Shown: one piece after another, positions 17,329 through 63,940 of the stretch
How the letters are laid out: each line of letters opens with the position of its first letter
Position numbering within the stretch: position 1 is the first letter of the stretch
NCBI GenBank assembly: GCA_000004985.1
Contig: GG738889.1
Strand: one strand, 5' to 3'
From: Naegleria gruberi
Taxonomy: Eukaryota
Length of the DNA stretch: 64,000 bases
Translations under genes and position numbers: made by a program
Notes under the pieces: generated by a model
The model's database searches: none
What the model saw: the letters and a program-made list of their open reading frames with translations, nothing else
What the model was told of the DNA's origin: nothing

Positions 17329-20300
17329 ATGAGTCAACTTGGAGAGGATTCTTTTCCTGCTGCTAATGAAGGCGATTACTTGCCGATCATTAAACCCTCA
17401 ACCGATAGGAGAGATTATAAAATTATAAAATTGGCTAATGAATTGGAAATAATTTTGTGTCATGATCCTGAGGCTTTAATTGCCTCCGCAGCTATGAATG
17501 TAAAAGGTAATTAGAAATTTAATAACATGTTTTGGAGTGATGATGATGGTGATGGTGGTGGAATGTAATAGTTGGTCATATGAGTGATCCGAGTGATTTT
17601 CCAGGTATGGCCCACTTTGTTGAGCACATGACCTTTATTTCGAGTAAAAAGTATCCAATCGAGGGTGAATATAAGGATTTTCTGAAGAAACGTGGAGGAG
17701 CAACCAATGCATCGACCTCCGCTGAAAAGACAACCTATTATTTTACAATATCGAATGATTATTTGGAAGAAGCTTTGGATAGATTTGCTCAATTTTTCAT
17801 TTCTCCAACATTTTCTGAACATCAAATCAATAGAGAAGTCGAGGCAATTAATAGTGAATTTAAAAAGAATTTACAATTGGAAGAAAGAAGACTCTATCAA
17901 TTGATGAAAAATTCGTCAAATCCACTGCATCCATTTAGAAAATTTGGAACTGGAAATACAATTTCATTGAAAACCGAACCTGAAATGAAAAATTTAAACT
18001 CGAGAGAGCACATGATTGAATTTTTTGAAAAATACTATTCTAGTAATCAAATGAAATTATCAATTATTGGAAATTATCCATTTGAAATATTAGAACAATG
18101 GGCAAGAAATTCATTTTCTGAAATACGAAACAATAATATGCAAACATACAAGTATTATCCAAGTTCAGTTGAGCCATTTAACAATGAAAATCTGGCCAGA
18201 TTATACAAATATATTCCAATATCTGACAGTCCTGTTCTCACCATCATGTTCCCCATCAATATTTCATATCCTGTTGAGGAGATGGGAAGAAATATGTACT
18301 ACAAACAAAGCTCGATAACTATGCTCAACAACTTGCTAGGTCATGAAGGTAAAGGATCTCTTTATTCTAAATTTCGAGCTGAAGGACTGGCTCAAAGTGT
18401 AGAGTCATACTATTACAGTTATGGAGGTGTTAGTGATCCAAACACATCTTTTTATTTCCTAATTGTTAAAGTCGAGTTGACAAAAAAGGGAGAAGATAAA
18501 TGGCAATCAATGATAGAGGATATTTTCGAATATATCAGCATGTTGAAAAAGGATGGAATACCAAAATACTTTTTTGATGAACTTAGTCAAATGAAAAAGC
18601 TAGCCTTTGAGAATGCTCAGTTTACCTCCACCCATGCCTCTAATTTGGCATCGAGTCTTCAACTTCACCTTCCACATGAAGTCATATCTGCTAACTATCT
18701 TATTTATGAGTTGGATGAGGTTGATATTTCAAATGTGTTAGGACAATTACATGCAGAAAATATGAACATTTACATTTGTAGCAAGTCCTTTGCACAAGAT
18801 GAATTGAAACATACAGAGAGATGGTATGATATCAAGTACTCTACAGATAGATTGGATTTTGATTTTCTGAATTTATTAAAGATGAGTAAGATTAATTGCT
18901 CCAAAGAGTTACACCTTCCACCACAGAATATATATGTGCCTTATAATTTGGAACTTGTGGAGGAAGAATCTACCGTATATCCTGAAAAGATTGTAGATGC
19001 TGACACTATTCGAACTTGGTTCAAGAAGGATGATTACTTTAAAACTCCAAGAGGTGACATTATTGCTAACATTATCGTACCACAAAGCTATTCAGATCCA
19101 TCCAATGCTGTAATGGTTCAATTATTTTGTGATATGGTACAATATTCATTGAATGAAGAGTTATACATGATCAAACTTGCAAAAATTTCCACTGAAATTG
19201 AAATGAACAAGAGAGGTTTAGCGATTTCAACATCAGGTTTCAGTAATCATTTGGAAGATGTCATTTATGTAATGTTAAGAGAAATTGTGCACATGTTCGA
19301 TAATGTTGATACATGTTTTACTGAAAAAATGTTTGATTACATCAAGGAAAATAATGTTAGGTATTATCAGAACCAAAAGTTTAAGAGACAACCATATCAA
19401 TTTGCTAGTTCAGAATACATCAATTTCTCTTTGAGGGCATTTGATTATTCATATGAGGAGTTTGCGAATGCTTTAGAAAAAATTACACTGGAGCAATTCA
19501 AAGGATTTGTTAAATTTTGGAGTTTGACAATGACAGTTGAGTGTCTTATTCATGGTAACTTTAAAAAGGATTTGGCAATGAGACTATCTGATAATATAAC
19601 TAGAATTTTATTTGAAGAAAGAAACAAAAGACCAATGACGCCTCTCCCTTGTCAGGATTTACTTACCAATGTAGCTATTTATCCACCGAATAAGGATCTT
19701 GCTTTAGTAATTCCAAATCCAAATGAAACGAACGAAAATAGTGCAATTCTTTCCTGTTTCCATATTGGCCCGAGATGTATGAGGATGGATTGCATTTTGG
19801 AGCTTTTTGCACAAGTATCAAGTAGCAAATATTTCCAATATATGAGAACAGAAAATCAATTTGGATACATTGTTAGCAGCTATCAACAAATGATCCACAA
19901 TGCCTCCTTCTTTGCTTGTGTAGTTCAAACAGTTAAAGATGATTTGTATCACATCTTCCATGAGAATGATTTATTCTTTGAAAAATTTGGTAACCATTTG
20001 GAGGAAATTACAGATGAAAAGTTTACCGAAATTATTGAATCAATCATTTCCAAAAACTTGGAAAAAGAAAAGACAATGGCTCAACGATCCTCTCGATACG
20101 ATATTGAAATATACAGAAAGCAATACAGATTTGATAGATACCAACTGAAAGCTGAGGAATTTAAAACAATAACCAAGGATGATCTCATTAACTTTTATAG
20201 AGATTATATTTTGAAAAGTGGAAAGAATTTTGCAAGGGCTAGCTTTATTGTAACAAAGAAGGATTTGATTATTACATTCCCAGAAGAGAAAAACATTGAG

Positions 20301-20366
20301 CTCGTCAGAAATAAGGAAAATTTCAAACTAGGCCTATCATATCATCCACATTTCATTTATTATTGA
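17329..20366 (+). CDS. Insulinase-family (M16A) zinc metallopeptidase, insulin-degrading-enzyme-like, two exons.
   Basis: Exons 17329..17506 and 17572..20366 with a 65-bp intron 17507..17571 (gtaatt..ag). The inverted zinc motif HxxEH is 'AHFVEHMTF', followed by 'NASTSAEKTTYYF'. Total ~990 aa, comparable to IDE/Ste23. Confidence 0.85.
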
Positions 20367-20382
20367 TTAGCTTGAATGTTCA

Positions 20383-20868
20383 TCACTTTCTTTCAAAAGT
20401 TTGGTGAACAACATTTGCAATTTTCAATTCGTCCACAAGTTTAAAATCATTTTCAAATTCAGGAATGTCCAAATAAATACCCTCACCAAGAGTTTCGTCC
20501 ACTTTTGTAATAATACATTCATCTATTAATTTTTCAATAGCAAAAGTTTTCACCAATTGAGCTCCACCCATCAGCCAAATATTATCATTTTCCCCCTTTG
20601 CCTTCTCACTCAACAATTTATGCATAAATGTTTTGACATTTTCCTTTACAATTATAATATTATTGCGATTGGGTGGCATTTTCAAATGTTCTTGTTGAGT
20701 AAAAACAAAGGTTGTCTTGTTTGGCCATTCCCAATTTTCAAAATCAATTGATTGTTCATATGTTTTTCTTCCTGTCACTATTGTTGATATTCTATTCATG
20801 AGTTTGTCATATCCTAAATCCTCCATCTTGACTTTCCTCTTATTTAATAATTTGCTCATTTTTTTCAA
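20383..20868 (-). CDS. RibD C-terminal-domain / dihydrofolate-reductase-family protein (bacterial-type). The N-terminus is possibly truncated or in an unfound upstream exon.
   Basis: 161-aa intronless ORF with 'IVTGRKTYE' and 'IWLMGGAQLVKTFAIEKLIDECIITKV', hallmarks of the RibD_C/YwjB family. The usual N-terminal '..ISLDGy' block is missing. Confidence 0.55.
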   Translation of the reverse strand: MKKMSKLLNKRKVKMEDLGYDKLMNRISTIVTGRKTYEQSIDFENWEWPNKTTFVFTQQEHLKMPPNRNNIIIVKENVKTFMHKLLSEKAKGENDNIWLMGGAQLVKTFAIEKLIDECIITKVDETLGEGIYLDIPEFENDFKLVDELKIANVVHQTFERK

Positions 20869-20939
20869 TTTGATTAGGATAGATCTTTGATATTCAAGAA
20901 GATGAAGTTGGTGAAAATCAAAATGCCTTTTTGATTGGC

Positions 20940-22584
20940 TTAATGTGAATATTGCATGTTTGGGGATTTTTCAGAATTTAACAAGGAATCGTTCTCTTGA
21001 TTGGTTGTTGCTGATGTTTCAGAATCATTTGATGTTTCTTTTTCCGAATGTTCATCCTTCTTTCGTTTAAATAATCTAGCTCCAATAGTGTTGAACATTT
21101 CCAAAAAATCAATTTCCACAATCGAAATTCCAGTCAAAATTAACATGACTAGTGCTATTGAGAATGTGGTGAGTAGTGCATTTGTAACCTCTTTCGCTGG
21201 AACACTTCTTGCAATAGTTAATAAGAACGATACATCAAGGATAATTGTAATGAAAATTGATAATGCTATCATTTTTCCAGTCTATTGTAAATTCCAATTG
21301 TTTCAATTATTCATAAATCTCTTAAAAACTTACACCTGTTTGGAAAATATTAATATCTGAAACCTTTTTCAAAGCCAAATGCATCCAAATCAATTGAAAT
21401 GTCATTACTAATACAGTGAGGGCACATATAGAAACCATGAAATAACTTGTAGCTTTCATATTTGTTATTATATCCACTGCACTGATTCCCATTAATCCAA
21501 TAACAAGTATAGCAAAGACAGCACCAATCAATATGTTAAGTCCATTCTTTGGCTTGGTATGGGTAATGGCATACACTACAGTGACATACTTGTTTCTCGA
21601 CATGACAACTAGTGCCATAAATGTGAATAGTATCGCAAAGGCAGTGAAAATATTTGCAACCCCATAAATATCGAACACTTCCAACATTACTGAAATAAAT
21701 AACATGAAAGATCCAGATCCTGTCAGTAGTAATACTACACTCTTTCCCTTAGTATTTCTATTATAGAATTCTATTGCTCTATAGGGAAAGATGATCAATG
21801 CAAGCAAATTGAATGAAACTGTGAGGATCAATTTGAAAGCCATCAATCCGTAATTGATAAAAATGTCAACTTTAGATGAAAGGCATCTCAATGAAAACAT
21901 ATCACTCTTTGAACAATAGCATCCATATACATATGGAAAAAAATTATCATTTTCCTTTTTCATTACTACTGGAATCCCCAACTCTTCAAGTCCACAAAAA
22001 AACTTTGATTTTGGAAAGTTGTCAATCACAAAACCAACCTGTCTGAAATAACTATTTTCTGTTTTTGCATTTACCTTATTCAAATACCTATCACTTCCAC
22101 AATAGAAACAATAATTAATCCATTGATAAGTATCAAATCCAGTTTCCTTCAAATATTTCTCTTCAAAATCTGACACGTAAAACTGAAAGCTTGTTTGGTT
22201 GAATAAATTCTTGCATTGATATTTCTCATTACTTGCCTCCCAAATCCTCATCGATCGACAAATATCAATTTCATCTCCCAAAGTCGGAAAGGAAAACAAC
22301 AAATCATAGCTTAATGTATTTCTTCCGATATCAAACATAATTGTCTTGGGAATGATAGCACTCGAACAGAATAATTCTAATTTATCTTTATAATCGATAT
22401 AGGTGTACGGAGATCCATAATCAAATGATGATATACGTTCTGATGAATTACATTGAAACTTGGCATTATTAAATGTTGGCAATGAGCAGTGAGTAATGGA
22501 TGCAGCACCGATAAGTATTAACATCAAGAGAGTGGGTATTTTCGGATCAAAAATGTTATTTGTGAATGGATGACGAAAGGGCAT
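20940..22584 (-). CDS. Multi-pass membrane protein with a signal peptide, a Cys-containing luminal N-domain and about 7 TM helices (GPR107/Lung-7TM-receptor-like topology). Two exons.
   Basis: Exons 21323..22584 and 20940..21270 with a 52-bp intron 21271..21322 (gtaagt..ag). Hydrophobicity predicts a signal sequence followed by seven helices spanning the exon junction. Confidence 0.5.
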
Positions 22585-22708
22585 TGTTTGTTTTTTTTTA
22601 TTAAATTTTATTTTTGTTTTTTTAATTTTTCCGCATTCATATGGAACTTATATTTAAGGCAACAATTATTATAAATATACTTTAATACTTTACAAAAATA
22701 TTTAACGT

Positions 22709-24379
22709 TTATTCTTCATCAGAGTCAACATCAAATTCCATTTCTTCCTCATCAGGTAAATACTCACTTTCTAAAAAGCTATCATTACAAAAGAGTAATT
22801 TAGACGAAAATCCAACATCTTCCAAAGCATTTACCATAACCTTCAATTGAGATTCCAACTCTGTTAGTCTATTCGAAAACTCTGAATGAGAATTCAGTAA
22901 TAAGGCACTATCTGCCTTTTTAAGAATTTCCACAGTTTCCAAATGTATTTCATCCTCACCCACAAGATCTTGATAATTCTGAATGTATTGTTTGATTTCA
23001 TTGAGTCTTCTCTCTTGAACTGCTCTTACATCTGGTAGAATAAAGTCAAGAAAACTTTCAGAGTTTACATTTTCAATTAGTTCTGCTAGTTTTTCCTCAT
23101 CGTCTGGATTGGAATAGACATGAATGAATTGTTGTTTCAAATCGCTCACATATTCTTTCAATAGTGGATCTGAATTGAAATCTGATTCCATTTTATCTAT
23201 CTTTCTAAATATTAGTGACAGCATGTCACTTCTTGGACGAGCATACAAATGAAATGATTTGTCCAATTTGAATGAAACTTCAACAAGTGGGAAACTATTC
23301 TCGAGTACATATTTCAAAAAACCAGAATCCGCATTTGATCCATAATGTGAATGAAGAACTTGAATACTGTTCAATGATTGGAAATTGATATCAATATTTT
23401 CACCATTTGTAAATCTAGCAAAACATTCTGAAATGGCTAAATGTTCCAAAGAGGGAAAGAAGTGTGCAACCATAGCCATAATTTGTGTCATTGACATTTC
23501 TCCCTTAATGTCCTTAAGACAAAGTTTCTTGGCATTTCTAAACACCTTGCATTCTGAAAAGTCCATTTCTTCAATCACTAAGGTTCTACAATCTGCTGCT
23601 ACTGAACTAAATTGATGAATGTGGTTCAGGTGCATCTTTTCGGCTGAGTATCGAATTGTGGCATTCGAAAAGTTTAGTGCTAAACAAGTTATGCATGATT
23701 GGAGCTTTTCAATGAGCCTATTTTCTTCCAGCTCAAGAATTGAATTCTTGAATATTAACTTTAATTTCTTGCCAAATCTTTGTTCTAAATCCACTTGTAG
23801 AGACCTAATGGTATCGTATAAAATGCACGGACCTTGTGTGGTAATGCTTTTTAAATTTGGTGAAAGAATTAGAGATTTTCTTACATCATGAGCAATCAGT
23901 GATGGTTCTTCCACCAATTTACAATAGCTTATGGTTAAATGTTGAATATGACTGTCAGGGTTCAACAAATTCCAAATGTCATCTTTTGACAAGCAATAAA
24001 TATTCCTTAATTCCAAGCCTGTACATTGAGCCATCAGTTTAGCACCTCCTAAAGGCATCTTTTCTAAATTGTCTACTTTTAAATATTTACAATTCTCACT
24101 TTCCAGATTTCTCATATTTCCATTTACAATTTTACAAACAAATTCGAAATCTCCTTTTTCAACAGCCAACAAGTTTTTTCTCGACCGTAAAACATAAGCC
24201 ATCATTGAATCATCTATCAACCTCAAAGATTTGAACAGATGAAGTGTTCTGATCAAGGATTCATCTTCTATGAAGGTCATGATCAAGACCCAAACATCAC
24301 CAACTAATTGAGGATGAGATTTTGTTTTTGAATTACGTGGCGAGTTTGTTTTGAAAAACTTGGTTAATCGTGTTAACAT
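22709..24379 (-). CDS. F-box-like / leucine-rich-repeat (RNI-like) protein with an acidic C-terminal tail.
   Basis: 556-aa ORF. Has LRR-type L-x-x-L-x-L periodicity throughout, an N-terminal F-box-like segment 'DVWVLIMTFIEDESLIRTLHLFKSLRLI' and a C-terminus 'EEEMEFDVDSDEE'. Confidence 0.6.
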   Translation of the reverse strand: MLTRLTKFFKTNSPRNSKTKSHPQLVGDVWVLIMTFIEDESLIRTLHLFKSLRLIDDSMMAYVLRSRKNLLAVEKGDFEFVCKIVNGNMRNLESENCKYLKVDNLEKMPLGGAKLMAQCTGLELRNIYCLSKDDIWNLLNPDSHIQHLTISYCKLVEEPSLIAHDVRKSLILSPNLKSITTQGPCILYDTIRSLQVDLEQRFGKKLKLIFKNSILELEENRLIEKLQSCITCLALNFSNATIRYSAEKMHLNHIHQFSSVAADCRTLVIEEMDFSECKVFRNAKKLCLKDIKGEMSMTQIMAMVAHFFPSLEHLAISECFARFTNGENIDINFQSLNSIQVLHSHYGSNADSGFLKYVLENSFPLVEVSFKLDKSFHLYARPRSDMLSLIFRKIDKMESDFNSDPLLKEYVSDLKQQFIHVYSNPDDEEKLAELIENVNSESFLDFILPDVRAVQERRLNEIKQYIQNYQDLVGEDEIHLETVEILKKADSALLLNSHSEFSNRLTELESQLKVMVNALEDVGFSSKLLFCNDSFLESEYLPDEEEMEFDVDSDEE

Positions 24380-24554
24380 ATTTTTTAATCGTTGATTTTA
24401 TTATTAATAGTAAAACGTGATTAAATGTAATTTAAAGGTTTCTAATAGATTTCTAATTAACAACAACTGTCTAATAATTTTGTACTCCAGAAGGTTCACC
24501 AACTATTTTGGAATACTTTAAAATTGTGAAATTCTTTACAATTTTTATTTAACT

Positions 24555-25756
24555 TTATGCATCACCAAGAATAGGTGTGTTTGCAAATTTATATCTGGTT
24601 CCTGTATGACGTTTCTTAATACTAATATATGAATCCAGGTTATCCTTGAAGGTTAGTATGATTTGGTTCATTAAGAAATTACAGAATGGAGATTGTACAG
24701 GTTTAGTTGAATGGGATTTACCTTTATGCTCCGCAATAGATCGAAAGTATGTTTGTTTGTCAGCATTTTCAATGATAGTGATTGGATATTTACCCCTCAA
24801 CAAGACATAGTTCATTAATAATCTAGATATTCTTCCATTCCCATCTTTGAATGGATGAATTTGAACAAAATTGTAATGGATAAGGCAAGCTTGTTTGATT
24901 GGATGGGAATTCATGAATGATGCAGAATTAACATATTGAATAAACTTCCTCATGAGACCTGGAACTTCATTAAAATCAGCTAACAACACCTTTTCAAAGC
25001 CAATTGCAACATTGACTTTTCGGTACGCTCCATTTTCTCTTAATAAATACATCATTAGAGTGATGCATTTGTTGAATGTTTTCCTCACTTAATGTTTCAT
25101 TTTGTTCAATATATTTAAGGATATAATCAAATGCAGTTTTGTGATTCATTACTTCCAAAAATTGTATATATGAAGTTTCTTTGGCAGCAACCTCAGAAAG
25201 TATTTGACTTGTTTGAGAAAATGAAGCAGTGCAACCTTCAATGGCATTTCCATGGTAAATAAATCTTGCCAGAGTGTCATTGGCAAGGATTTCTTTCATA
25301 TCAAAGTTAAAGCTCTGGGACAAATCTTCAACAACAGCTAAATCATTTTCATCTTAAACCAATAAGAAATAAGAAAAAGTAAAGCCTACCCAATTCAATT
25401 TCTGAAGGATGTTGAAACAAACTGGCATAACCTTGATATATTGCACCATCCTCAACCAATTCATAAAAATTGGAAGTACTTCTAAACGGTTCGTACAGCT
25501 TTTTCATCTCTTCTTCTCTCCAAGTCTCTGCCTCATAAAATAGTTTAAATTGGTTCCTTTGTTTCAGTAGCTTGTCGGAATCAACATATTCCTGAGTACT
25601 TTCGTAAGTATAAAACACAACAATGCTTAATAAAAGTATCACGACCACTCCACAAATATACAACACAATATTATCTTTTCGAATTGTTTTCTTGGTTTTT
25701 GGTACCGAAGTTTTCTTGTAGTTTGTTTTCCTTACTATATTTCCCTTGCTTATCAT
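24555..25756 (-). CDS. Fic-domain AMPylase, FICD/HYPE-like (N-terminal TM anchor plus Fic core). It is disrupted by a +1 frameshift in an A4/T4 homopolymer (plus-strand T run 25033..25036). It is either a pseudogene or a sequence error.
   Basis: Fic motif 'HPFKDGNGRISRLLMNYVLL'. The upstream frame carries 'YHGNAIEGCT' (inhibitory-helix-like xxxE[GN]) and 'AYRKVNVAI'. Exon 1 is 25390..25756 (TM 'LYICGVVVILLLSIVVFYTY'). The candidate intron 25353..25389 (gtaggc..ag) is only 37 bp and uncertain. Dropping one A from the minus-strand run AAAA gives a continuous '..MHHSNDVFIKRNGAYRKVNVAIGF..'. Confidence 0.6.
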
Positions 25757-58787: not shown

Positions 58788-61700
58788 TTAATCTAGTAAG
58801 TCAACTTCAGTAAATTTAACTGAACTATTTGCATCCTCCAATTTTTGAAGTTTGAGTGGAGGAACCTTATTGTATGTAGCTGAAAGAGTTGGATGGACTT
58901 GTTCTTCTGTAGCTTCTGAAAGCTCAAGAGGGGTTTCTTCATATTTATGAACAACTACACTGTTCGATTTTACAAAAACTTGTCCACCACCATAGGTTAC
59001 CTCACCAGAAGTTGATGTAACTTTTTGAGTCTTTCTAGCTCCATACCAAATGCAGAAGAAAATTGATGCAAGAGTTACGCACAGACATAATGCAAACATT
59101 ACAGTGGAGAGCACAACACCTGCTACATATGTGAATGAATGATATACTGTTGTTACTGTTTCCATGATGAAAACATTTGTTAATTGTTTACATCTGCATA
59201 CAGCATATGTATCATTCATTGATAGCATTATGCAATCAACTGCAACCTCTGTTGAACCATCATCAAAATTGCCACAAGAATATCTTACTTCTTGTTCTAT
59301 ATAATCTAATGTAGTGTGAATAACTTCATGGATTGCAATAGATTTGTTGATAGGAATTTCATAAACCAAATATTGCGAATTAACTGGAATAGACAAATCA
59401 ATTAGTTTAAGGGAAACAATTGGTGAAACTAAGCTAGACATTTGATAGGTTTGTGAATCGACTTTTTGGGAGATTGTTAACTTTGTGTTCAAAGAAAATA
59501 CATCAATTGAACTTGAGAAAATATATACAAATGGTTTCTTGAAAAGTGTAGTAACCTGAGGACTGAAATCAAAGATGTAGTTTTCCATTTGAACAGATGC
59601 CTTACTAACATCATCATGAATTGAGGTAGGCATGTCAAATATTGTGTGTCTATTTACAGTCATCGAGTAGAATGACCCTGTCTTTTGTTGTTTCTTACTT
59701 CCCACAACAATATTTCGTCCAATTAAACAAGTGGACAATTTGAGAGCTGACAATAATCTACGAGAGTTGGTTGATTGATCTACAAAGTATTGTCTATTGA
59801 TGATATAACTATAAGCAGATTCTACACTACTGACAAGCAATGTTTCAATCTCTGGAGCTAATTTAAGATTTGGATCAGCCAAAGCATACTCAAGGAACAT
59901 ATTCAATGTGAAAAGCGATTCTGATATTGTTTTGGAATTGAGCAATTGGTAATTGATCAACAGAGAGTCAATTGAGAATGATAACAAGGAGAGATAGTAA
60001 TCATTTACGAATCCGTCAGTACTATTCGCAATGTAAATCATATCTCTGAGTACTATCATCTTGGTTCCTTGAATATCAGAAAAAGCTTGAATAGAATCTG
60101 AGCAATCAGATCCAATCCAACCATCTTCACATTTACAGACACCTGAAATGTCTCTTCCATGAATACACTCTATAGTTCTTTTTACTGGTTTGGATGATAC
60201 ACTGTACAGTTTCTTTAAAAGCTGTTGTAACAAGACAGAGTCAGTTCTTGAGGTTGTAGCTGATTGATAGAAGCTTGAACTAAATTCTCCCTTAGAGGTA
60301 AATTCAGAACTCTTCTCAGCCCATTCCTTAACAATTTTAGAGGCATCTGAAAAATCACTAATGACTGGCTTTGAAATGGTCAAATTTTGATAAGTAGTTA
60401 TTGAGGCACCAGTAACTGTTTGAATCACCTCAAAGTAACACGTTAAGGTAGAACCACTGAAAGGAGCTGGAAGCTTTGAAGAGTAAATGTCACCAAACTT
60501 GTAGAGCTCAATTTTTGATCCTGATCTATCATCAATGAATCCGTACTTGTAATCAATATTTGCTTCAATGTTCTTGCAGTTGGAACAGTAGAACTTGAAT
60601 TCTGTTTCTAGAGCTTGACCCTTGAGTGGTGAAATAGTACAATCACAAGGTTTTGGGGTTACAGCAATGGTGAATGAGTAACTTGATTGAGTTGAAAAAC
60701 CAGTCTTTTTGTCAAAAATAATGCATGTCACAACATTGGTTGAACCTTCTTCGAGCTGTTTGGTGTCAATAATAATTGTGATTGTCTTGTCAATTGTTGT
60801 GTTACTACAAGAGGTGTTTTGTAAAACAGCTCCATTCAGCAACCAGGTAGCATTCACAGAGGAAGATTCAGCATAAAGCAGGGCTTGAATTGACAAAAAT
60901 TGTCCAGGAAGTAAAATAGAGGAGGAAGGCTCGATATGAAGAATGTTCAATAGTGGAGGAACTTTACCAAAGAATACAGTGGTTGTCTTTTCAATTGATC
61001 GACCATCTAATTTTTCAACTCTCAGTTTAAGTTCTACAGAGGATGGGATAGTAGAGAACAATGAGCTTGACACTACAAATTCTGAAGCCTTTGTTGAGCC
61101 TGCATTGTTGAGCAAATTAACTAGTTCAGGACTTGTGTTATCCAAACAGGTCCAAGTCCATGTTTCAATTGAGCTATCATGCAATGACATTTCTGGGTCT
61201 AAATAATCAACTTCAATAGTGGTATGGTATTTGGTAGATTCACTTTGAATAATGCTAAGAATGAGGTCAGGTGACTTTGTTACAATATTAACGATAGTGG
61301 ATGCTTTCAATGATGGGTTGGAAGCATAAAAAGCTGACACCTCAAAAGTGTAATTTTGAGTCCCAAACTTGCTAACAGAAGGAATGAACAAGTTATTGTA
61401 AGAGTCTGAACTGAATGTTATGGCTGAGCCACTCAACTTGGTCCATTCCACTTGCAATACGTCACTATCACTTTGACATACAGAAGGTGTAATCACTTTC
61501 TTTACAGTGAGAGGGAATTGGTTTGTATACTTTACAATTGTCTCTCCCTTATTGCTTGTACTGAGTAGAGGAAGTGGTTTTACTGCTTTGGTGAATCTCT
61601 TGGAAGACACAGTGCTACTCACCAAATTTAACCACTTACTTTTAACATAGAGGGTCATAATGTAGTCACCAGCTGTAAGAGAAGAATCAAGTGTAAAGAT

Positions 61701-62714
61701 GGATTGTCCTTGTAATATTGAGACAGGATTCATGGTTGTAGCATCTAGAAGTGACCAATAATACAATAATTGCTTGCCATCTATGGAATAGCTCGAAGAG
61801 CCATCAATAGTGATTGTGTCGCAAGAACTATAGATATCTGTACTGGCCATTTGAATGATAGCTTTTGGTGGTGAAATATTTTGAGGTACATTCACAGTCA
61901 ATGGCATGTATTGTTGATGGATTTGCTCATTTTCAAAAGCAAGATCATTAATTTGAATTGTTGTCTCTCCTGGTTGAATATCATAATCAACAGAACCAAA
62001 AGATATCATAAAGAGTCCGCTAACCTTATCTAAATATTGGCACTTGATGTTTGTTATCGAGCCATACACATTCTTGCTAATGTCAGAGGGATGTAGTAAG
62101 GATGAGCATGGAACATCCTTTTCGATAAAGTCATAAGGTGAATGCAGATAAAAGGTTATACCCTTAAAATCTGACGATATCACTGCTGGTCCTACAACCC
62201 TTGATGAACACTTCTCACCATGATACTCTGATTGACATGAACTACATGAACGGCCTGTCCAAAATCCCTCCTTAATACTTGAGTGGCATTCACATTCTCC
62301 CTTAATATTGCACTCTCCATGACCAGTGCAATTAATAATTCTATCGCAAAAAGTTGGCGATATTTCCAATTGACAATTACTACCCTCATAACCACTCGAA
62401 CAAGAACAGTTATTCAATGAAATACATGCTCCTCTCCCTGAACAAACACTCGTATCATTTGCTCTCATTCCCTCACATGTAATACTGTCCTCACCTAGCT
62501 TATTCAATTTACATTCAATCCTAGAAGAATTTAATAACACTAGCAGCACAGCCATCAAAGTTAAAAATATTATCGAAAAACCTGTCGTACGAGACGATGA
62601 TGGCTTGGTGTTATGATTGATTAAGGCGGCGAAAATAGCCCTGCCGCGAATTGGCTGCGTCATTGTTGATGTGTTTTTTTGTGGTGGGAAAAGCTGTTGT
62701 TTATAATATCGCAC
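58788..62714 (-). CDS. Large single-pass membrane glycoprotein with N-terminal EGF-like Cys-rich modules, a long REJ-like extracellular region, a GPS-like motif and a C-terminal TM (sea-urchin REJ / PKD1-like architecture).
   Basis: 1308-aa intronless ORF. Signal/anchor 'FSIIFLTLMAVLLVLL'. EGF-like 'CSGRGACISLNNCSCSSGYEGSNCQ' and 'CTGHGECNIKGECEC'. GPS-like 'YSCGNFDDGSTEVAVDCIMLSMNDTYAVCRCKQLTNVF'. TM 'VAGVVLSTVMFALCLCVTLASIFFCIWY'. Confidence 0.55.
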   Translation of the reverse strand: MRYYKQQLFPPQKNTSTMTQPIRGRAIFAALINHNTKPSSSRTTGFSIIFLTLMAVLLVLLNSSRIECKLNKLGEDSITCEGMRANDTSVCSGRGACISLNNCSCSSGYEGSNCQLEISPTFCDRIINCTGHGECNIKGECECHSSIKEGFWTGRSCSSCQSEYHGEKCSSRVVGPAVISSDFKGITFYLHSPYDFIEKDVPCSSLLHPSDISKNVYGSITNIKCQYLDKVSGLFMISFGSVDYDIQPGETTIQINDLAFENEQIHQQYMPLTVNVPQNISPPKAIIQMASTDIYSSCDTITIDGSSSYSIDGKQLLYYWSLLDATTMNPVSILQGQSIFTLDSSLTAGDYIMTLYVKSKWLNLVSSTVSSKRFTKAVKPLPLLSTSNKGETIVKYTNQFPLTVKKVITPSVCQSDSDVLQVEWTKLSGSAITFSSDSYNNLFIPSVSKFGTQNYTFEVSAFYASNPSLKASTIVNIVTKSPDLILSIIQSESTKYHTTIEVDYLDPEMSLHDSSIETWTWTCLDNTSPELVNLLNNAGSTKASEFVVSSSLFSTIPSSVELKLRVEKLDGRSIEKTTTVFFGKVPPLLNILHIEPSSSILLPGQFLSIQALLYAESSSVNATWLLNGAVLQNTSCSNTTIDKTITIIIDTKQLEEGSTNVVTCIIFDKKTGFSTQSSYSFTIAVTPKPCDCTISPLKGQALETEFKFYCSNCKNIEANIDYKYGFIDDRSGSKIELYKFGDIYSSKLPAPFSGSTLTCYFEVIQTVTGASITTYQNLTISKPVISDFSDASKIVKEWAEKSSEFTSKGEFSSSFYQSATTSRTDSVLLQQLLKKLYSVSSKPVKRTIECIHGRDISGVCKCEDGWIGSDCSDSIQAFSDIQGTKMIVLRDMIYIANSTDGFVNDYYLSLLSFSIDSLLINYQLLNSKTISESLFTLNMFLEYALADPNLKLAPEIETLLVSSVESAYSYIINRQYFVDQSTNSRRLLSALKLSTCLIGRNIVVGSKKQQKTGSFYSMTVNRHTIFDMPTSIHDDVSKASVQMENYIFDFSPQVTTLFKKPFVYIFSSSIDVFSLNTKLTISQKVDSQTYQMSSLVSPIVSLKLIDLSIPVNSQYLVYEIPINKSIAIHEVIHTTLDYIEQEVRYSCGNFDDGSTEVAVDCIMLSMNDTYAVCRCKQLTNVFIMETVTTVYHSFTYVAGVVLSTVMFALCLCVTLASIFFCIWYGARKTQKVTSTSGEVTYGGGQVFVKSNSVVVHKYEETPLELSEATEEQVHPTLSATYNKVPPLKLQKLEDANSSVKFTEVDLLD

Positions 62715-62887: not shown

Positions 62888-63940
62888 ATGCAGAGAATGG
62901 TGTGGAGAGGAGGAGCGATTGTTTTTGGAGGAATGTTGGGTTATTTCGGAAAGAATTATTTGAGAGATTTTAAAAAAGAGTTTTTAGAAAAGAAGATGCA
63001 AGTAGATCACTTGTTGTTTACTAGTAAATTGTTAAAGTTTAGGAAATTTTCTAATGGTGATCCGATGGTAGAAGATATTGATTGTAAATATTTGGAATTG
63101 ATTAGTGATTATTTGGTTTTTAATTTAAAATCATTACCTATGGATGATGGTAATTTGAAAAGAAATATTTCTAGTGGAACTTGTTTTGTGACAAGTCCAA
63201 TGAATGATCCATCTTGTGAATATATTTATTTGGTGACTGCTGCACACTGTGTTATAAATAAGGAGGGAAAGGCAAAGAAAGTTGGACTCATTCCAAAGAA
63301 TAAGGAAGGTTCCATATCAAATCAAAAACTAAAATCGAATAGTGGAGAGTTAATCGAGTGTCAAATAATTTGTTGTGAATATGATGGAGATAGAGATGTG
63401 GATTTTGCAATTATGAAATGTTCTAGGAAGGAATTTTTGGAAAAGAATGGGTTTACTGAGATACCTAGTCAATATTTTGTGCCTAAGATTGGTGAATTTA
63501 AAGAAAATGATGATAATTTGAATAATATAATAGTTGGATATCCTTCAAAGTATAAAGAATATAGAGATAAGCGAGTACTAGATTATACTTTTGAAAAATT
63601 GAATGGGTTAATGATGACATATCAAAAGAGACCAGTATTTTCTTTTGGAAGATATTTAAGAACGGAAAAGAGTAACTCAGAGAAGGCAGATATCACTATT
63701 TTTACGAACACCATCAATAAGGGATTCAGTGGCGGTCCTTCCATTGAATGGAGAGGTAATACATCTCAAAATGATACACTCCCTAAATTTCATGGTATTG
63801 TGGCATTGTTTGATGATGCTGGATATGGATCTTTTAATGTTTCGAATGAAGAATTTAGGCAGGCTTACTTTTCACATATTGAAATTCCTTCAACAACTGG
63901 TCTAGATATAAAGAAAGCCATCGAGGAATATAGAAAATAA
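62888..63940 (+). CDS. Trypsin-like serine peptidase (S1 family, Trypsin_2/DegP-core-like, no PDZ) with an N-terminal hydrophobic segment.
   Basis: Catalytic His 'LVTAAHCV', Asp in 'DVDFAIMKC' and Ser in 'GFSGGPSIEW' (GDSGGP-like), in the canonical order. 350-aa intronless ORF. Confidence 0.7.
   Translation: MQRMVWRGGAIVFGGMLGYFGKNYLRDFKKEFLEKKMQVDHLLFTSKLLKFRKFSNGDPMVEDIDCKYLELISDYLVFNLKSLPMDDGNLKRNISSGTCFVTSPMNDPSCEYIYLVTAAHCVINKEGKAKKVGLIPKNKEGSISNQKLKSNSGELIECQIICCEYDGDRDVDFAIMKCSRKEFLEKNGFTEIPSQYFVPKIGEFKENDDNLNNIIVGYPSKYKEYRDKRVLDYTFEKLNGLMMTYQKRPVFSFGRYLRTEKSNSEKADITIFTNTINKGFSGGPSIEWRGNTSQNDTLPKFHGIVALFDDAGYGSFNVSNEEFRQAYFSHIEIPSTTGLDIKKAIEEYRK

What the first reader, a model, noticed from the sequence alone, without database searches (positions are those of the whole stretch)
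20383..20868. Intronless bacterial-type RibD_C / DHFR-family gene (candidate horizontal acquisition)
The 161-aa ORF has the RibD C-terminal-domain hallmarks (GRKTYE, WLMGGAQLV..ITKV). This family is overwhelmingly bacterial, and the gene is intronless in a genome where most conserved genes carry tiny introns. The conserved N-terminal beta-strand (ISLDG) is missing, so the gene may be N-terminally truncated or have an undetected upstream exon. Together with the Trypsin_2 gene at 62888 it suggests foreign-gene uptake.
Basis: partly seen in the sequence, partly recalled or inferred. Interest (0 to 1): 0.55.

Follow-up and report, generated by a model that had tools for sequence, protein, structure and literature searches.

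The report
Truncated bacterial reductase gene in Naegleria
An unannotated 158-codon open reading frame in the amoeba Naegleria gruberi is a bacterial DHFR-like reductase gene, picked up from the kind of bacteria that live inside amoebae, and it has cleanly lost the first strand of the enzyme, so it is probably a relic and not a working reductase.

Summary
The ORF is real. It lies at 20383-20868 on the minus strand, with an ATG at 20859, giving 158 aa. The window is Naegleria gruberi NEG-M. The ORF sits between two annotated intron-containing Naegleria genes and has no gene model of its own.

It is a YyaP/SacH-type "dihydrofolate reductase family" protein (Pfam RibD_C and DHFR_1; 148 bits to a subfamily profile). 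All 866 detectable relatives are prokaryotic or metagenomic. The best match is 50% identical.

A bootstrapped NJ tree nests it (97/100) in a proteobacterial clade. That clade includes Ca. Jidaibacter, Midichloriaceae, Holospora and Legionella alongside unclassified MAGs. There the gene is cargo of a mobile island of small-molecule-modifying enzymes. Bacterial origin by horizontal transfer is well supported.

The first 28 family positions (central strand βA and the SxDGFIA loop) are absent. No remnant, upstream exon or ATG exists. Base composition and codon usage are host-like, conserved columns are kept, and the branch is about 1.5 times longer than its relatives'.

Most likely reading: a long-resident, 5'-truncated, catalytically dead remnant. 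A retained non-catalytic function cannot be excluded. Being intronless is not evidence, because at least six neighbouring gene models are intronless too.

Ordinary in kind: a new member of the known class of bacterium-to-amoeba transfers.

The parts
20383..20859 (-). 158-codon ORF plus TGA stop. It encodes an N-terminally truncated YyaP/SacH-type DHFR-like (RibD_C) domain. Residues about 7-158 are homologous to family profile positions 29-178.
   Evidence: AlphaFold2 model pLDDT 84 with 7 strands and betaA absent; Foldseek top hits 3jtw, 3ky8, 2xw7, 7xh2/7xh4
20824..20859 (-). Novel basic 12-residue N-terminus, MSKLLNKRKVKM, which replaces the ~33 N-terminal residues of full-length homologues (betaA strand and SxDGFIA...WL loop). 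M12 is an alternative start.
   Evidence: alignment A1; pLDDT below 50 for residues 1-8
20755..20772 (-). GRKTYE motif (end of betaB, start of alphaC; the part that contacts the cofactor phosphates in DHFR-fold enzymes).
   Evidence: read directly from the sequence; conserved column G30; the role assignment rests on established DHFR structural knowledge
20551..20577 (-). WLMGGAQLV motif (betaE-alphaF Gly-Gly loop, cofactor pyrophosphate binding in the DHFR fold). W95, L96, G98 and G99 are invariant in alignment A1 (G98 and G99 also in A3).
20860..20939 (-). 80-nt spacer between the stop of the upstream gene NAEGRDRAFT_71216 and the ORF's ATG. It has no ATG in any frame and no remnant of the family's N-terminus.
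20367..20382 (.). 16-nt gap between the convergent stop codons of the M16 peptidase gene (TGA 20364-20366) and the ORF (TGA 20383-20385). It contains the ORF's second in-frame TGA.
20940..22584 (-). Upstream neighbour NAEGRDRAFT_71216 (EFC40941.1, D2VQG3), a 530-aa multi-pass membrane protein. Exons are 22584-21334 and 21281-20940, with a 52-nt GTAAGT..AG intron at 21282-21333. It shows that the ORF is embedded in authentic eukaryotic DNA.
   Evidence: my spliced model matches the database protein exactly
17329..20366 (+). Downstream convergent neighbour: the M16 (insulinase-type) peptidase EFC40868.1 (D2VQG2), annotated from 17580. There is a probable extra 5' exon at 17329-17506 and a 65-nt intron at 17507-17571.

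Best explanation
The ORF descends from a bacterial NAD(P)H-dependent DHFR-fold reductase. It belongs to the YyaP/YwjB/SacH branch of the RibD_C family. It is neither a true FolA-type DHFR nor a riboflavin RibD.

The gene entered the Naegleria lineage by horizontal transfer from a proteobacterium. Several named members of its bacterial clade are bacteria that live inside amoebae and ciliates (Midichloriaceae/Ca. Jidaibacter, Holospora, Legionella). In those bacteria it is one cassette in a mobile array of small-molecule-modifying, resistance-type enzymes.

The Naegleria copy carries only profile positions 29-178. The DNA for the central strand betaA and the following SxDGFIA..G..WL loop is simply absent. 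In the solved relative SacH, this region supplies part of the nicotinamide and substrate pocket.

The retained part still holds the two cofactor-phosphate motifs (GRKTYE and WLMGGA) and the acidic residue of helix alphaB. Without the central strand and the loop, hydride transfer is very unlikely.

What is shown: bacterial ancestry, integration in host DNA, clean truncation, host-like composition, absence of a gene model. What is inferred: loss of catalysis. My call is that it is a long-resident remnant that is non-functional or at most non-catalytic.
For: Organism and integration:
- Ten window ORFs or models are exact matches to N. gruberi NEG-M proteins from one 348-kb scaffold.
- Both flanking genes have spliceosomal introns.
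- The ORF lies 16 nt and 80 nt from its neighbours.

Family:
- Pfam RibD_C and DHFR_1 both match.
- PDB sequence hits: 3jtw 7.9e-35, 2xw7, 3ky8, 2gd9 (YyaP), 7xh2 (SacH).
- Fold search gives the same set.

Bacterial ancestry:
- 866 relatives, best 50% identical, a Pseudomonadota MAG.
- The genome scan returned only bacterial and archaeal loci. The top ones are Alphaproteobacteria MAGs, Ca. Jidaibacter, Holospora, Legionella and Fastidiosibacter.
- No protein from a eukaryotic source among the best 120 hits.
- NJ bootstrap: nested in the proteobacterial clade in 97/100 replicates.

Mobility and function in bacteria:
- Flanks are shared at 80-100% nucleotide identity across Legionella, Holospora, Jidaibacter and Fastidiosibacter.
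- Neighbours are NUDIX, kinase, methyltransferase, GNAT, glyoxalase/bleomycin-resistance and APH genes.
- SacH-type members reduce hemiaminal antibiotics and do not reduce dihydrofolate (PMC10031226).

Truncation:
- The profile alignment starts at position 29.
- There is no ATG upstream.
- The N-terminal scan gives 7.7 bits, against 52-64 bits for intact or frameshifted bacterial copies. The best score anywhere in the window is 23 bits, inside an unrelated gene.
- SacH uses Ala9, Leu23, Leu26 and Glu27 in its active site.

No gene model:
- Consecutive UniProt accessions D2VQG2 and D2VQG3 flank the ORF.
- The sequence is not in the 15-billion-protein collection.

Accelerated evolution and substitutions:
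- Root-to-tip distance is 0.741 against 0.504 +/- 0.063 for clade members.
- Radical changes occur at conserved sites: P138D (98% conserved), G63E, F148D, M51T.
Against: The frame is open for 158 codons, all the way to the family's natural C-terminus, in a 31% GC sequence.

Under a simple neutral model with host base composition, only 8% of bacterial homologues keep an open frame after 0.1 substitutions per site, and 0.3% after 0.3.

Synonymous codon usage is host-like. The log-likelihood ratio is +0.049 bits per codon. Host genes give 0.10 +/- 0.06 and the 37 bacterial homologue genes give -0.17 +/- 0.08, with a maximum of -0.039. GC3 is 0.283, within the host range. This suggests long residence.

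The ORF keeps 82% of the columns that are at least 80% conserved, but only 30% of the variable columns. Bona fide bacterial members of equal divergence show the same pattern (0.86 +/- 0.07).

Together these results fit purifying selection on the retained domain. That would mean it is expressed and does something.

Caveats on these counter-arguments. Much of the divergence may predate the transfer. An AT-rich donor would need little amelioration. The codon statistic separates host DNA from bacterial genes, but it separates the host coding frame from other host frames only weakly.
Confidence: 0.58

Rival explanations
1. A functional, domesticated short gene. The truncated DHFR-like domain is transcribed from the 80-nt spacer and translated from M1 or M12. 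Selection keeps it for a new role, for example NADP(H) or small-molecule binding, or activity regained by completing its beta-sheet through dimerisation.
For: The frame is intact to the native C-terminus. An open frame is expected to be lost quickly under neutrality. Codon usage and GC3 are host-like. The conservation pattern is the same as in working bacterial members. The cofactor-phosphate motifs and the alphaB acidic residue are retained. The AF2 model is confident (pLDDT 84) for residues 12-158. The ORF fills a tidy gene-sized slot in a compact genome.
Against: BetaA, the central strand of the DHFR sheet, and the adjacent loop are missing. The replacement N-terminus, MSKLLNKRKVKM, is basic and predicted to be disordered. 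Radical substitutions occur at highly conserved positions, and the branch is about 1.5 times too long. There is no gene model in the reference annotation. No close copy was found in any other dataset. High AF2 confidence driven by an alignment of full-length relatives does not prove that the fragment folds.
Confidence: 0.3
2. A complete gene whose 5' part was missed. Either an upstream exon supplies the N-terminal strand, or the ORF is an alternatively spliced 3' exon of NAEGRDRAFT_71216.
For: Short introns exist in both neighbours. The reference model of the neighbouring peptidase does miss a 5' exon. The ORF's frame stays open for 37 codons upstream of the ATG.
Against: No ATG occurs in the 80 nt before the neighbour's stop. 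The profile scan of the whole 64-kb window, both strands, finds no N-terminal segment. The maximum is 23 bits, inside an EGF/REJ protein, against 52-64 bits for true N-termini. Fusion to the membrane protein would still not supply betaA.
Confidence: 0.05
3. Bacterial contamination or a chimeric assembly, not true Naegleria DNA.
For: The only independent contig for this region (L001, 98.3% identical, from an ENA metagenome) stops at 20958, just short of the ORF. Continuity across the ORF therefore rests on the reference assembly alone.
Against: The ORF is flanked at 16 nt and 80 nt by Naegleria genes on a 348-kb scaffold. Its GC, GC3 and codon usage are host-like and lie outside the range of all 37 bacterial homologue genes. 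No sampled bacterium is more than 50% identical.
Confidence: 0.03
4. An ancestral eukaryotic gene inherited vertically and lost elsewhere.
For: None found. The protein databases do not allow a translated search of other heterolobosean genomes.
Against: All relatives found are prokaryotic or metagenomic. The ORF is nested inside a shallow proteobacterial clade with 97/100 bootstrap support.
Confidence: 0.02

Closest known systems
YyaP/YwjB-type 'dihydrofolate reductase family protein' (Pfam PF01872 RibD_C; PDB 3jtw, 2gd9, 2xw7, 3ky8)
   Same: Same fold and sequence family. The profile of the ORF and its seven closest relatives (alignment A2) matches 3jtw at E=7.9e-35, and Foldseek matches it at 4.3e-9, TM 0.70. 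The GRxTYE and WL.GGA motifs, the C-terminal strands and the native C-terminus are retained.
   Different: It lacks the first ~28 profile positions (betaA and the SxDG(F/Y)IA..G..WL loop), which intact members have (236 of 171-195 aa were used for the profile). It is encoded in a eukaryotic nuclear genome. It has radical changes at P138, G63, F148 and M51.
SacH / SfcH (PDB 7xh2, 7xh4): DHFR-like reductase that inactivates hemiaminal tetrahydroisoquinoline antibiotics (PMC10031226)
   Same: Same branch of the DHFR/RibD superfamily (sequence E=2.5e-22; Foldseek TM 0.73-0.75). The bacterial relatives of the ORF sit among resistance-type modifying enzymes, and once next to an NRPS/PKS cluster. That fits a detoxifying reductase role for the ancestor.
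   Different: Only about 20% identical. SacH's active site uses Ala9, Leu23, Leu26 and Glu27. At least the first three lie in the segment the Naegleria ORF lacks. No substrate is known for the ORF's own clade.
Canonical dihydrofolate reductase FolA/DfrA (Pfam PF00186)
   Same: It passes the DHFR_1 gathering score (32.1 bits against 25). It shares the Gly-Gly cofactor loop and an acidic residue in the alphaB position (the alignment to E. coli FolA is my own inference).
   Different: It aligns only to profile positions 27-140. NCBIfam DfrA models score about 20 bits against cut-offs of 325-360. SacH-type relatives do not reduce dihydrofolate. BetaA and the Met20 loop are missing.
RibD C-terminal reductase domain (riboflavin biosynthesis)
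   Same: Distant homology of the C-terminal half (TIGR00227 17 bits; Foldseek hit to 7lrh).
   Different: There is no deaminase domain. Scores are far below the cut-offs (17 against 150). It is not in a riboflavin gene context.
Bacterium-to-amoeba gene transfers and the amoeba 'melting pot' (PMC5751055, PMC3220658, PMC6892926)
   Same: The donor clade includes amoeba- and ciliate-associated Rickettsiales, Holosporales and Legionellales alongside unclassified MAGs. In those bacteria the gene is itself exchanged laterally.
   Different: Here the recipient is the host nucleus. Wang & Wu 2017 report that direction to be rare for Acanthamoeba endosymbionts. The transferred copy is also incomplete.

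Membership tests
RibD_C / YyaP-SacH-type DHFR-like reductases (PF01872) | Significant match to the family profile | tested here: met
   RibD_C 27.7 bits against a cut-off of 24.1. 148 bits to a 236-member subfamily HMM. 866 homologues found.
RibD_C / YyaP-SacH-type DHFR-like reductases (PF01872) | Complete eight-stranded DHFR fold, including the central N-terminal strand betaA and the SxDG(F/Y)IA motif | tested here: not met
   The alignment starts at profile position 29. The AF2 model has 7 strands. No remnant lies upstream: 7.7 bits against 52-64 bits in controls.
RibD_C / YyaP-SacH-type DHFR-like reductases (PF01872) | Cofactor-binding motifs G-R-x-T-Y-E and W-L-x-G-G | tested here: met
   GRKTYE at residues 30-35 and WLMGGA at 95-100. 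W95, L96, G98 and G99 are invariant in alignment A1, and G30, G98 and G99 in A3.
RibD_C / YyaP-SacH-type DHFR-like reductases (PF01872) | NAD(P)H-dependent reductase activity | not testable with these tools
   Needs the recombinant protein. Inferred to be lost because the betaA/loop residues used by SacH (Ala9, Leu23, Leu26) are absent.
Canonical DHFR (FolA, PF00186) | Full-length match to the DHFR profile and to DHFR-specific models | tested here: not met
   DHFR_1 matches only positions 27-140 of 159. NCBIfam DfrA models give about 20 bits against cut-offs of 325-360.
Canonical DHFR (FolA, PF00186) | Acidic catalytic residue in helix alphaB | tested here: inconclusive
   E13 and D14 in 'MEDLGY' align with the family's acidic position before G-Y. 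Equivalence to FolA Asp27 or SacH Glu27 rests on my manual alignment.
Bifunctional RibD (riboflavin biosynthesis) | Deaminase domain plus a reductase domain that reaches the TIGR00326 / TIGR00227 cut-offs | tested here: not met
   17.3 bits against 156 and 17.2 bits against 150. There is no deaminase domain.
Horizontally acquired bacterial gene in a eukaryotic genome | Phylogenetically nested inside a bacterial clade, with no eukaryotic relatives | tested here: met
   NJ bootstrap 97/100 nested. No protein from a eukaryotic source among the best 120 of 601 hits. Limits: NJ was used rather than ML, and unannotated eukaryotic genomes could not be searched.
Horizontally acquired bacterial gene in a eukaryotic genome | Physically linked to native, intron-bearing host genes (not contamination) | tested here: met
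   Flanked at 16 nt and 80 nt by EFC40868.1 and EFC40941.1, both with GT..AG introns.
Horizontally acquired bacterial gene in a eukaryotic genome | Expression in the host | not testable with these tools
   No transcript data are available. There is no gene model in the reference annotation.

The most novel reading that the evidence does not exclude
The truncated domain is not a relic. It is a cargo gene from the mobile detoxification island of amoeba-dwelling bacteria that the host has kept under selection in a shortened form. Its role would be new: non-catalytic NADP(H) or ligand binding, or an enzyme that rebuilds its central sheet by strand-swapped dimerisation. It would be a documented case of an amoeba nucleus capturing and repurposing a gene from its intracellular bacteria.
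Probability: 0.15. Interest if true: 0.5.

Novelty: new member of a known kind. Interest (0 to 1): 0.3.

Why it matters
Bacterium-to-protist gene transfer is well known, so the kind is ordinary. Three things give this case modest value.

First, it is a coding-quality ORF with no gene model in the N. gruberi reference annotation.

Second, its relatives point to a particular donor pool. They include Rickettsiales, Holosporales and Legionellales that live inside protists, and in them the gene rides a highly mobile island of resistance-type enzymes. The case therefore bears on symbiont-to-host-nucleus transfer, a direction reported as rare for Acanthamoeba endosymbionts.

Third, the clean loss of the central strand together with an open, host-adapted frame makes a simple test case. 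A few experiments could tell whether incomplete transferred genes persist by selection or by chance.

It does not give Naegleria a second DHFR and should not be annotated as one.

Tried and rejected
1. An eyeballed N-terminal remnant upstream, 'KGIL|FSPTSSS*ISK' compared with the family's 'KVILYIATSSDGF'. Rejected. A frameshift-tolerant PSSM alignment scores 7.7 bits there, below the mean of random 120-nt blocks in the window (9.2 +/- 1.9; 82% of blocks score as high). Positive controls score 52-64 bits.

2. The window-wide top hit of that scan (23 bits, around 60,000 on the minus strand, 'MIYIANSTDGFVNDY'). It lies in frame inside an EGF/REJ-domain protein and is a chance match.

3. Giant-virus or phage vector. 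A scan of viral contigs found no relative.

4. Close orthologues in JGI metagenomes. None; the only hit is 23% identical.

5. A second-strain sequence across the ORF. The metagenome contig L001 (98.3% identical) ends at 20958. A search with the peptidase C-terminus returned nothing. It did not even return the N. gruberi peptidase that is in the collection. A miss by the word-indexed search is therefore weak evidence. The claim of absence from the collection rests.

6. Codon usage as proof of translation. The host-versus-donor statistic separates host DNA from bacterial genes. Host off-frame DNA scores -0.02 to +0.05, so the statistic does not prove selection on the frame.

7. Flanking target-site duplications or inverted repeats. 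Only short matches at chance level.

8. RNA families between 19000 and 22000. None.

9. The first genome scan, using the 28-sequence alignment, failed for lack of a conserved stretch. It was repeated successfully with 8 sequences.

Full report
**What is there**

The minus strand of the window carries an open frame at 20383-20868 (161 codons from a TTG). The first ATG is at 20859, which gives a 158-aa product. It begins MSKLLNKRKVKMEDLGYDKLMNRISTIVTGRKTYEQ, contains NIWLMGGAQLV and LIDECIITKV, and ends HQTFERK, followed by two in-frame TGA codons.

Pfam matches both DHFR_1 (E=1.2e-7, 32.1 bits, profile 27-140 of 159) and RibD_C (E=2.9e-6, 27.7 bits, profile 96-190 of 197). Both are above their gathering scores.

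**Organism and neighbourhood**

Ten ORFs or spliced models from the window are exact matches to Naegleria gruberi NEG-M proteins from one 348,446-bp scaffold.

The ORF lies between two annotated genes:
- The M16 peptidase EFC40868.1 (UniProt D2VQG2) is convergent. Its stop is at 20364-20366, 16 nt from the ORF's stop.
- NAEGRDRAFT_71216 (EFC40941.1, D2VQG3) is in tandem. Its stop is at 20940-20942, 80 nt upstream of the ATG.

My spliced model of 71216 (exons 22584-21334 and 21281-20940, with a 52-nt GTAAGT..AG intron) reproduces the database protein exactly.

The two flanking genes carry consecutive UniProt accessions. None of three versions of the ORF's product is in the 15-billion-protein collection. 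Exhaustive HMMER finds nothing above 50% identity. The ORF therefore has no gene model in the reference annotation.

Intronlessness is not informative. At least six annotated genes in this window are single ORFs.

**Family**

Exhaustive HMMER finds 866 relatives at E<=1e-3 (84 at <=1e-10). The best is a 179-aa 'dihydrofolate reductase family protein' from a Pseudomonadota MAG, with E=1.9e-26 and 50% identity.

A profile of the ORF with its seven closest relatives (alignment A2) hits these solved structures:
- 3jtw (7.9e-35)
- 2xw7
- 3ky8
- 2gd9 (B. subtilis YyaP)
- 7xh2 (SacH)

An AlphaFold2 model (pLDDT 84, pTM 0.78) gives the same set by Foldseek, with TM 0.70-0.75.

NCBIfam models for DfrA and RibD score only about 17-22 bits, against cut-offs of 150-360. 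The ORF therefore belongs to the YyaP/SacH branch of the DHFR/RibD superfamily. It is not FolA and not riboflavin RibD.

SacH and its homologues reduce hemiaminal antibiotics with NAD(P)H and do not reduce dihydrofolate (PMC10031226).

**Origin**

A scan of 185,579 prokaryotic species genomes returned 80 loci. The closest, at 38-46% identity, are:
- Alphaproteobacteria MAGs
- Ca. Jidaibacter, Midichloriaceae and Rickettsiaceae
- Holospora curviuscula
- Legionella drancourtii and L. santicrucis
- Fastidiosibacter

The named taxa among these are largely bacteria that live in amoebae or ciliates; many of the closest loci are unclassified MAGs.

A profile search of 5.8 billion protein clusters listed no protein from a eukaryotic source among its best 120 of 601 hits.

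An NJ tree on 146 columns and 70 sequences places the ORF inside this proteobacterial clade. In 100 bootstrap replicates it was nested in the clade 97 times, and the clade plus ORF was monophyletic 83 times. The exact sister is unresolved.

No relatives were found in viral contigs. No close ones were found in JGI metagenomes.

The direction of transfer is bacterium to Naegleria. The family is broadly prokaryotic, and Naegleria is the only eukaryote found to carry this subfamily.

**Bacterial context**

In Legionella drancourtii the homologue lies in a run of overlapping small genes:
- nucleotidyltransferase/DUF4440
- NUDIX
- AAA_18 kinase
- methyltransferase
- RibD_C
- GNAT
- glyoxalase/bleomycin-resistance
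- APH
- GNAT

The best-hit MAG shows a similar set. Another close homologue sits next to NRPS/PKS genes and integrases.

Several kilobases of this array are 80-92% identical at the DNA level between Fastidiosibacter, Legionella, Holospora, Jidaibacter, Midichloriaceae and a Rickettsiaceae MAG. They are 100% identical between the two Legionella species.

The ancestor was therefore most likely a detoxifying reductase cassette on a mobile island. That island circulates in the 'melting pot' of protist-associated bacteria (PMC5751055; PMC3220658).

**The truncation**

A 182-position HMM built from 236 full-length members aligns to the ORF only from position 29 to 178 (148 bits). Positions 1-28 are absent. 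These are strand betaA ('ILYIA') and the 'S.DGFIAD..G..WL' loop.

The 80 nt between the neighbour's stop and the ORF's ATG contain no ATG in any frame.

I wrote a frameshift-tolerant alignment of profile positions 1-28 to DNA. The results:
- The upstream region scores 7.7 bits, below the average random block of the window (9.2 +/- 1.9).
- Intact bacterial copies score 62-64 bits.
- Bacterial copies broken by a stop codon (L002) or a frameshift (L078, L055) score 52-58 bits.
- A bacterial copy cut off by an IS200-like insertion (L041) scores 8 bits.
- The best score anywhere in the 64-kb window is 23 bits, in frame inside an unrelated EGF/REJ protein.

The 5' part is therefore gone. It is not frameshifted, and it is not on a nearby exon.

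The same approach does recover a missed 5' exon for the neighbouring peptidase, so the method can find such exons.

The AlphaFold2 model has seven strands. Its first eight residues are disordered.

In SacH, Ala9, Leu23, Leu26 and Glu27 line the active site. At least the first three fall in the missing segment.

The retained part keeps GRKTYE, WLMGGA and an acidic residue before G-Y.

**Age and constraint**

Composition and codon usage:

| Measure | ORF | Host genes | Bacterial homologue genes |
|---|---|---|---|
| GC | 0.31 | 0.31-0.37 | 0.29-0.74 |
| GC3 | 0.283 | 0.18-0.345 | 0.22-0.92 |
| Synonymous-codon LLR, host vs donor (bits/codon) | +0.049 | 0.10 +/- 0.06 | -0.17 +/- 0.08 (max -0.039; the 37 closest loci) |

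Host DNA read off-frame gives an LLR of -0.02 to +0.05. The statistic therefore shows host-like DNA, not necessarily translation.

In a neutral simulation with host base composition, bacterial homologues keep an open 158-codon frame in 8% of runs at 0.1 substitutions per site, and in 0.3% at 0.3.

The ORF matches the family consensus at 82% of columns that are at least 80% conserved, and at 30% of variable columns. This is within the range of bacterial members of equal divergence (0.86 +/- 0.07).

Against this, it carries P138D (98% conserved), G63E, F148D and M51T. Its root-to-tip distance is 0.741 against 0.504 +/- 0.063 for the clade.

These data pull in two directions. The open frame and the conservation pattern suggest constraint. 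The lost strand, the radical substitutions, the faster rate and the absence of a gene model suggest decay.

**Verdict**

Bacterial ancestry and integration in the Naegleria genome are well supported; I put this at about 0.9. Truncation without a hidden exon is well supported, at about 0.9. Loss of reductase activity is inferred from the fold.

My estimates for present status are:
- Remnant, non-functional or at most non-catalytic: 0.58
- Short gene kept by selection: 0.30
- Hidden exon or fusion: 0.05
- Assembly artefact: 0.03
- Vertical descent: 0.02

This is a new member of a known kind, a bacterium-to-amoeba transfer. Its interest is modest. What it adds is the missing annotation and the identifiable donor pool.

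Noticed in passing
window 17329-17579 (+): The reference model of the M16 peptidase (EFC40868.1, 928 aa, starting at 17580) seems to miss a 59-aa 5' exon (17329-17506) joined through a 65-nt GTAATT..AG intron (17507-17571). With the exon, the Pfam Peptidase_M16 match improves from profile 24-121 (98.6 bits) to 2-122 (119.5 bits).
   Followed up: yes
L014-L028, L033, L039, L040 (bacterial loci; e.g. L017 1-6435): The bacterial homologues sit in an array of overlapping small genes: nucleotidyltransferase/DUF4440, NUDIX, AAA_18 kinase, methyltransferase, RibD_C, GNAT, glyoxalase/bleomycin-resistance, APH, GNAT. The array is shared at 80-92% nucleotide identity over several kb between Gammaproteobacteria (Legionella, Fastidiosibacter) and Alphaproteobacteria (Holospora, Ca. 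Jidaibacter, Midichloriaceae, Rickettsiaceae). This looks like a mobile resistance-type island of protist-associated bacteria.
   Followed up: partly
L017 and L018: Legionella drancourtii LLAP12 and L. santicrucis SC-63-C7 are 100% identical over about 6.2 kb of this island, apart from one ~220-nt indel. This suggests very recent exchange or a shared plasmid or element.
   Followed up: no
L002 5750-6110; L078 and L055 2800-3100; L041 150-480: N-terminally short copies in bacteria are ordinary pseudogenes. L002 has one in-frame stop after an intact N-terminus. L078 and L055 have frameshifts. L041 is cut off next to an IS200/IS605-type transposase ('HIVWITKYR'). The Naegleria truncation, which leaves no trace, is different.
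   Followed up: yes
L001 (ENA metagenome ERZ929261 contig, = window 20958-25008): A metagenome holds a Naegleria strain 98.3% identical to the window. Its contig ends 18 nt beyond the neighbour's stop codon, just short of the ORF. I cannot tell whether that is low coverage or a structural difference at the ORF.
   Followed up: partly
window ~59990-60055 (-): 'MIYIANSTDGFVNDY', inside a 1308-aa EGF/REJ-domain protein (58788-62714), mimics the family's 'ILYIATSxDGFIAD' motif. It scores 23 bits, the best in the window. It is a chance match, but it shows how heavy the tail of such short-motif scans is.
   Followed up: yes
It only just passes Pfam Trypsin_2 (29.1 bits against 27.6). Its origin, bacterial or not, was not examined.
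   Followed up: no
tool behaviour: The word-indexed protein search did not return the N. gruberi M16 peptidase when queried with its own last 250 residues, although that protein is in the collection. Negative results from that search alone should not be read as absence.
   Followed up: partly
window 12482/12487, 20366/20383, 38272/38286: ORFs on opposite strands end within 4-16 nt of each other at several places in this window. Where both are real genes, their 3' UTRs must overlap, which fits a very compact genome.
   Followed up: no
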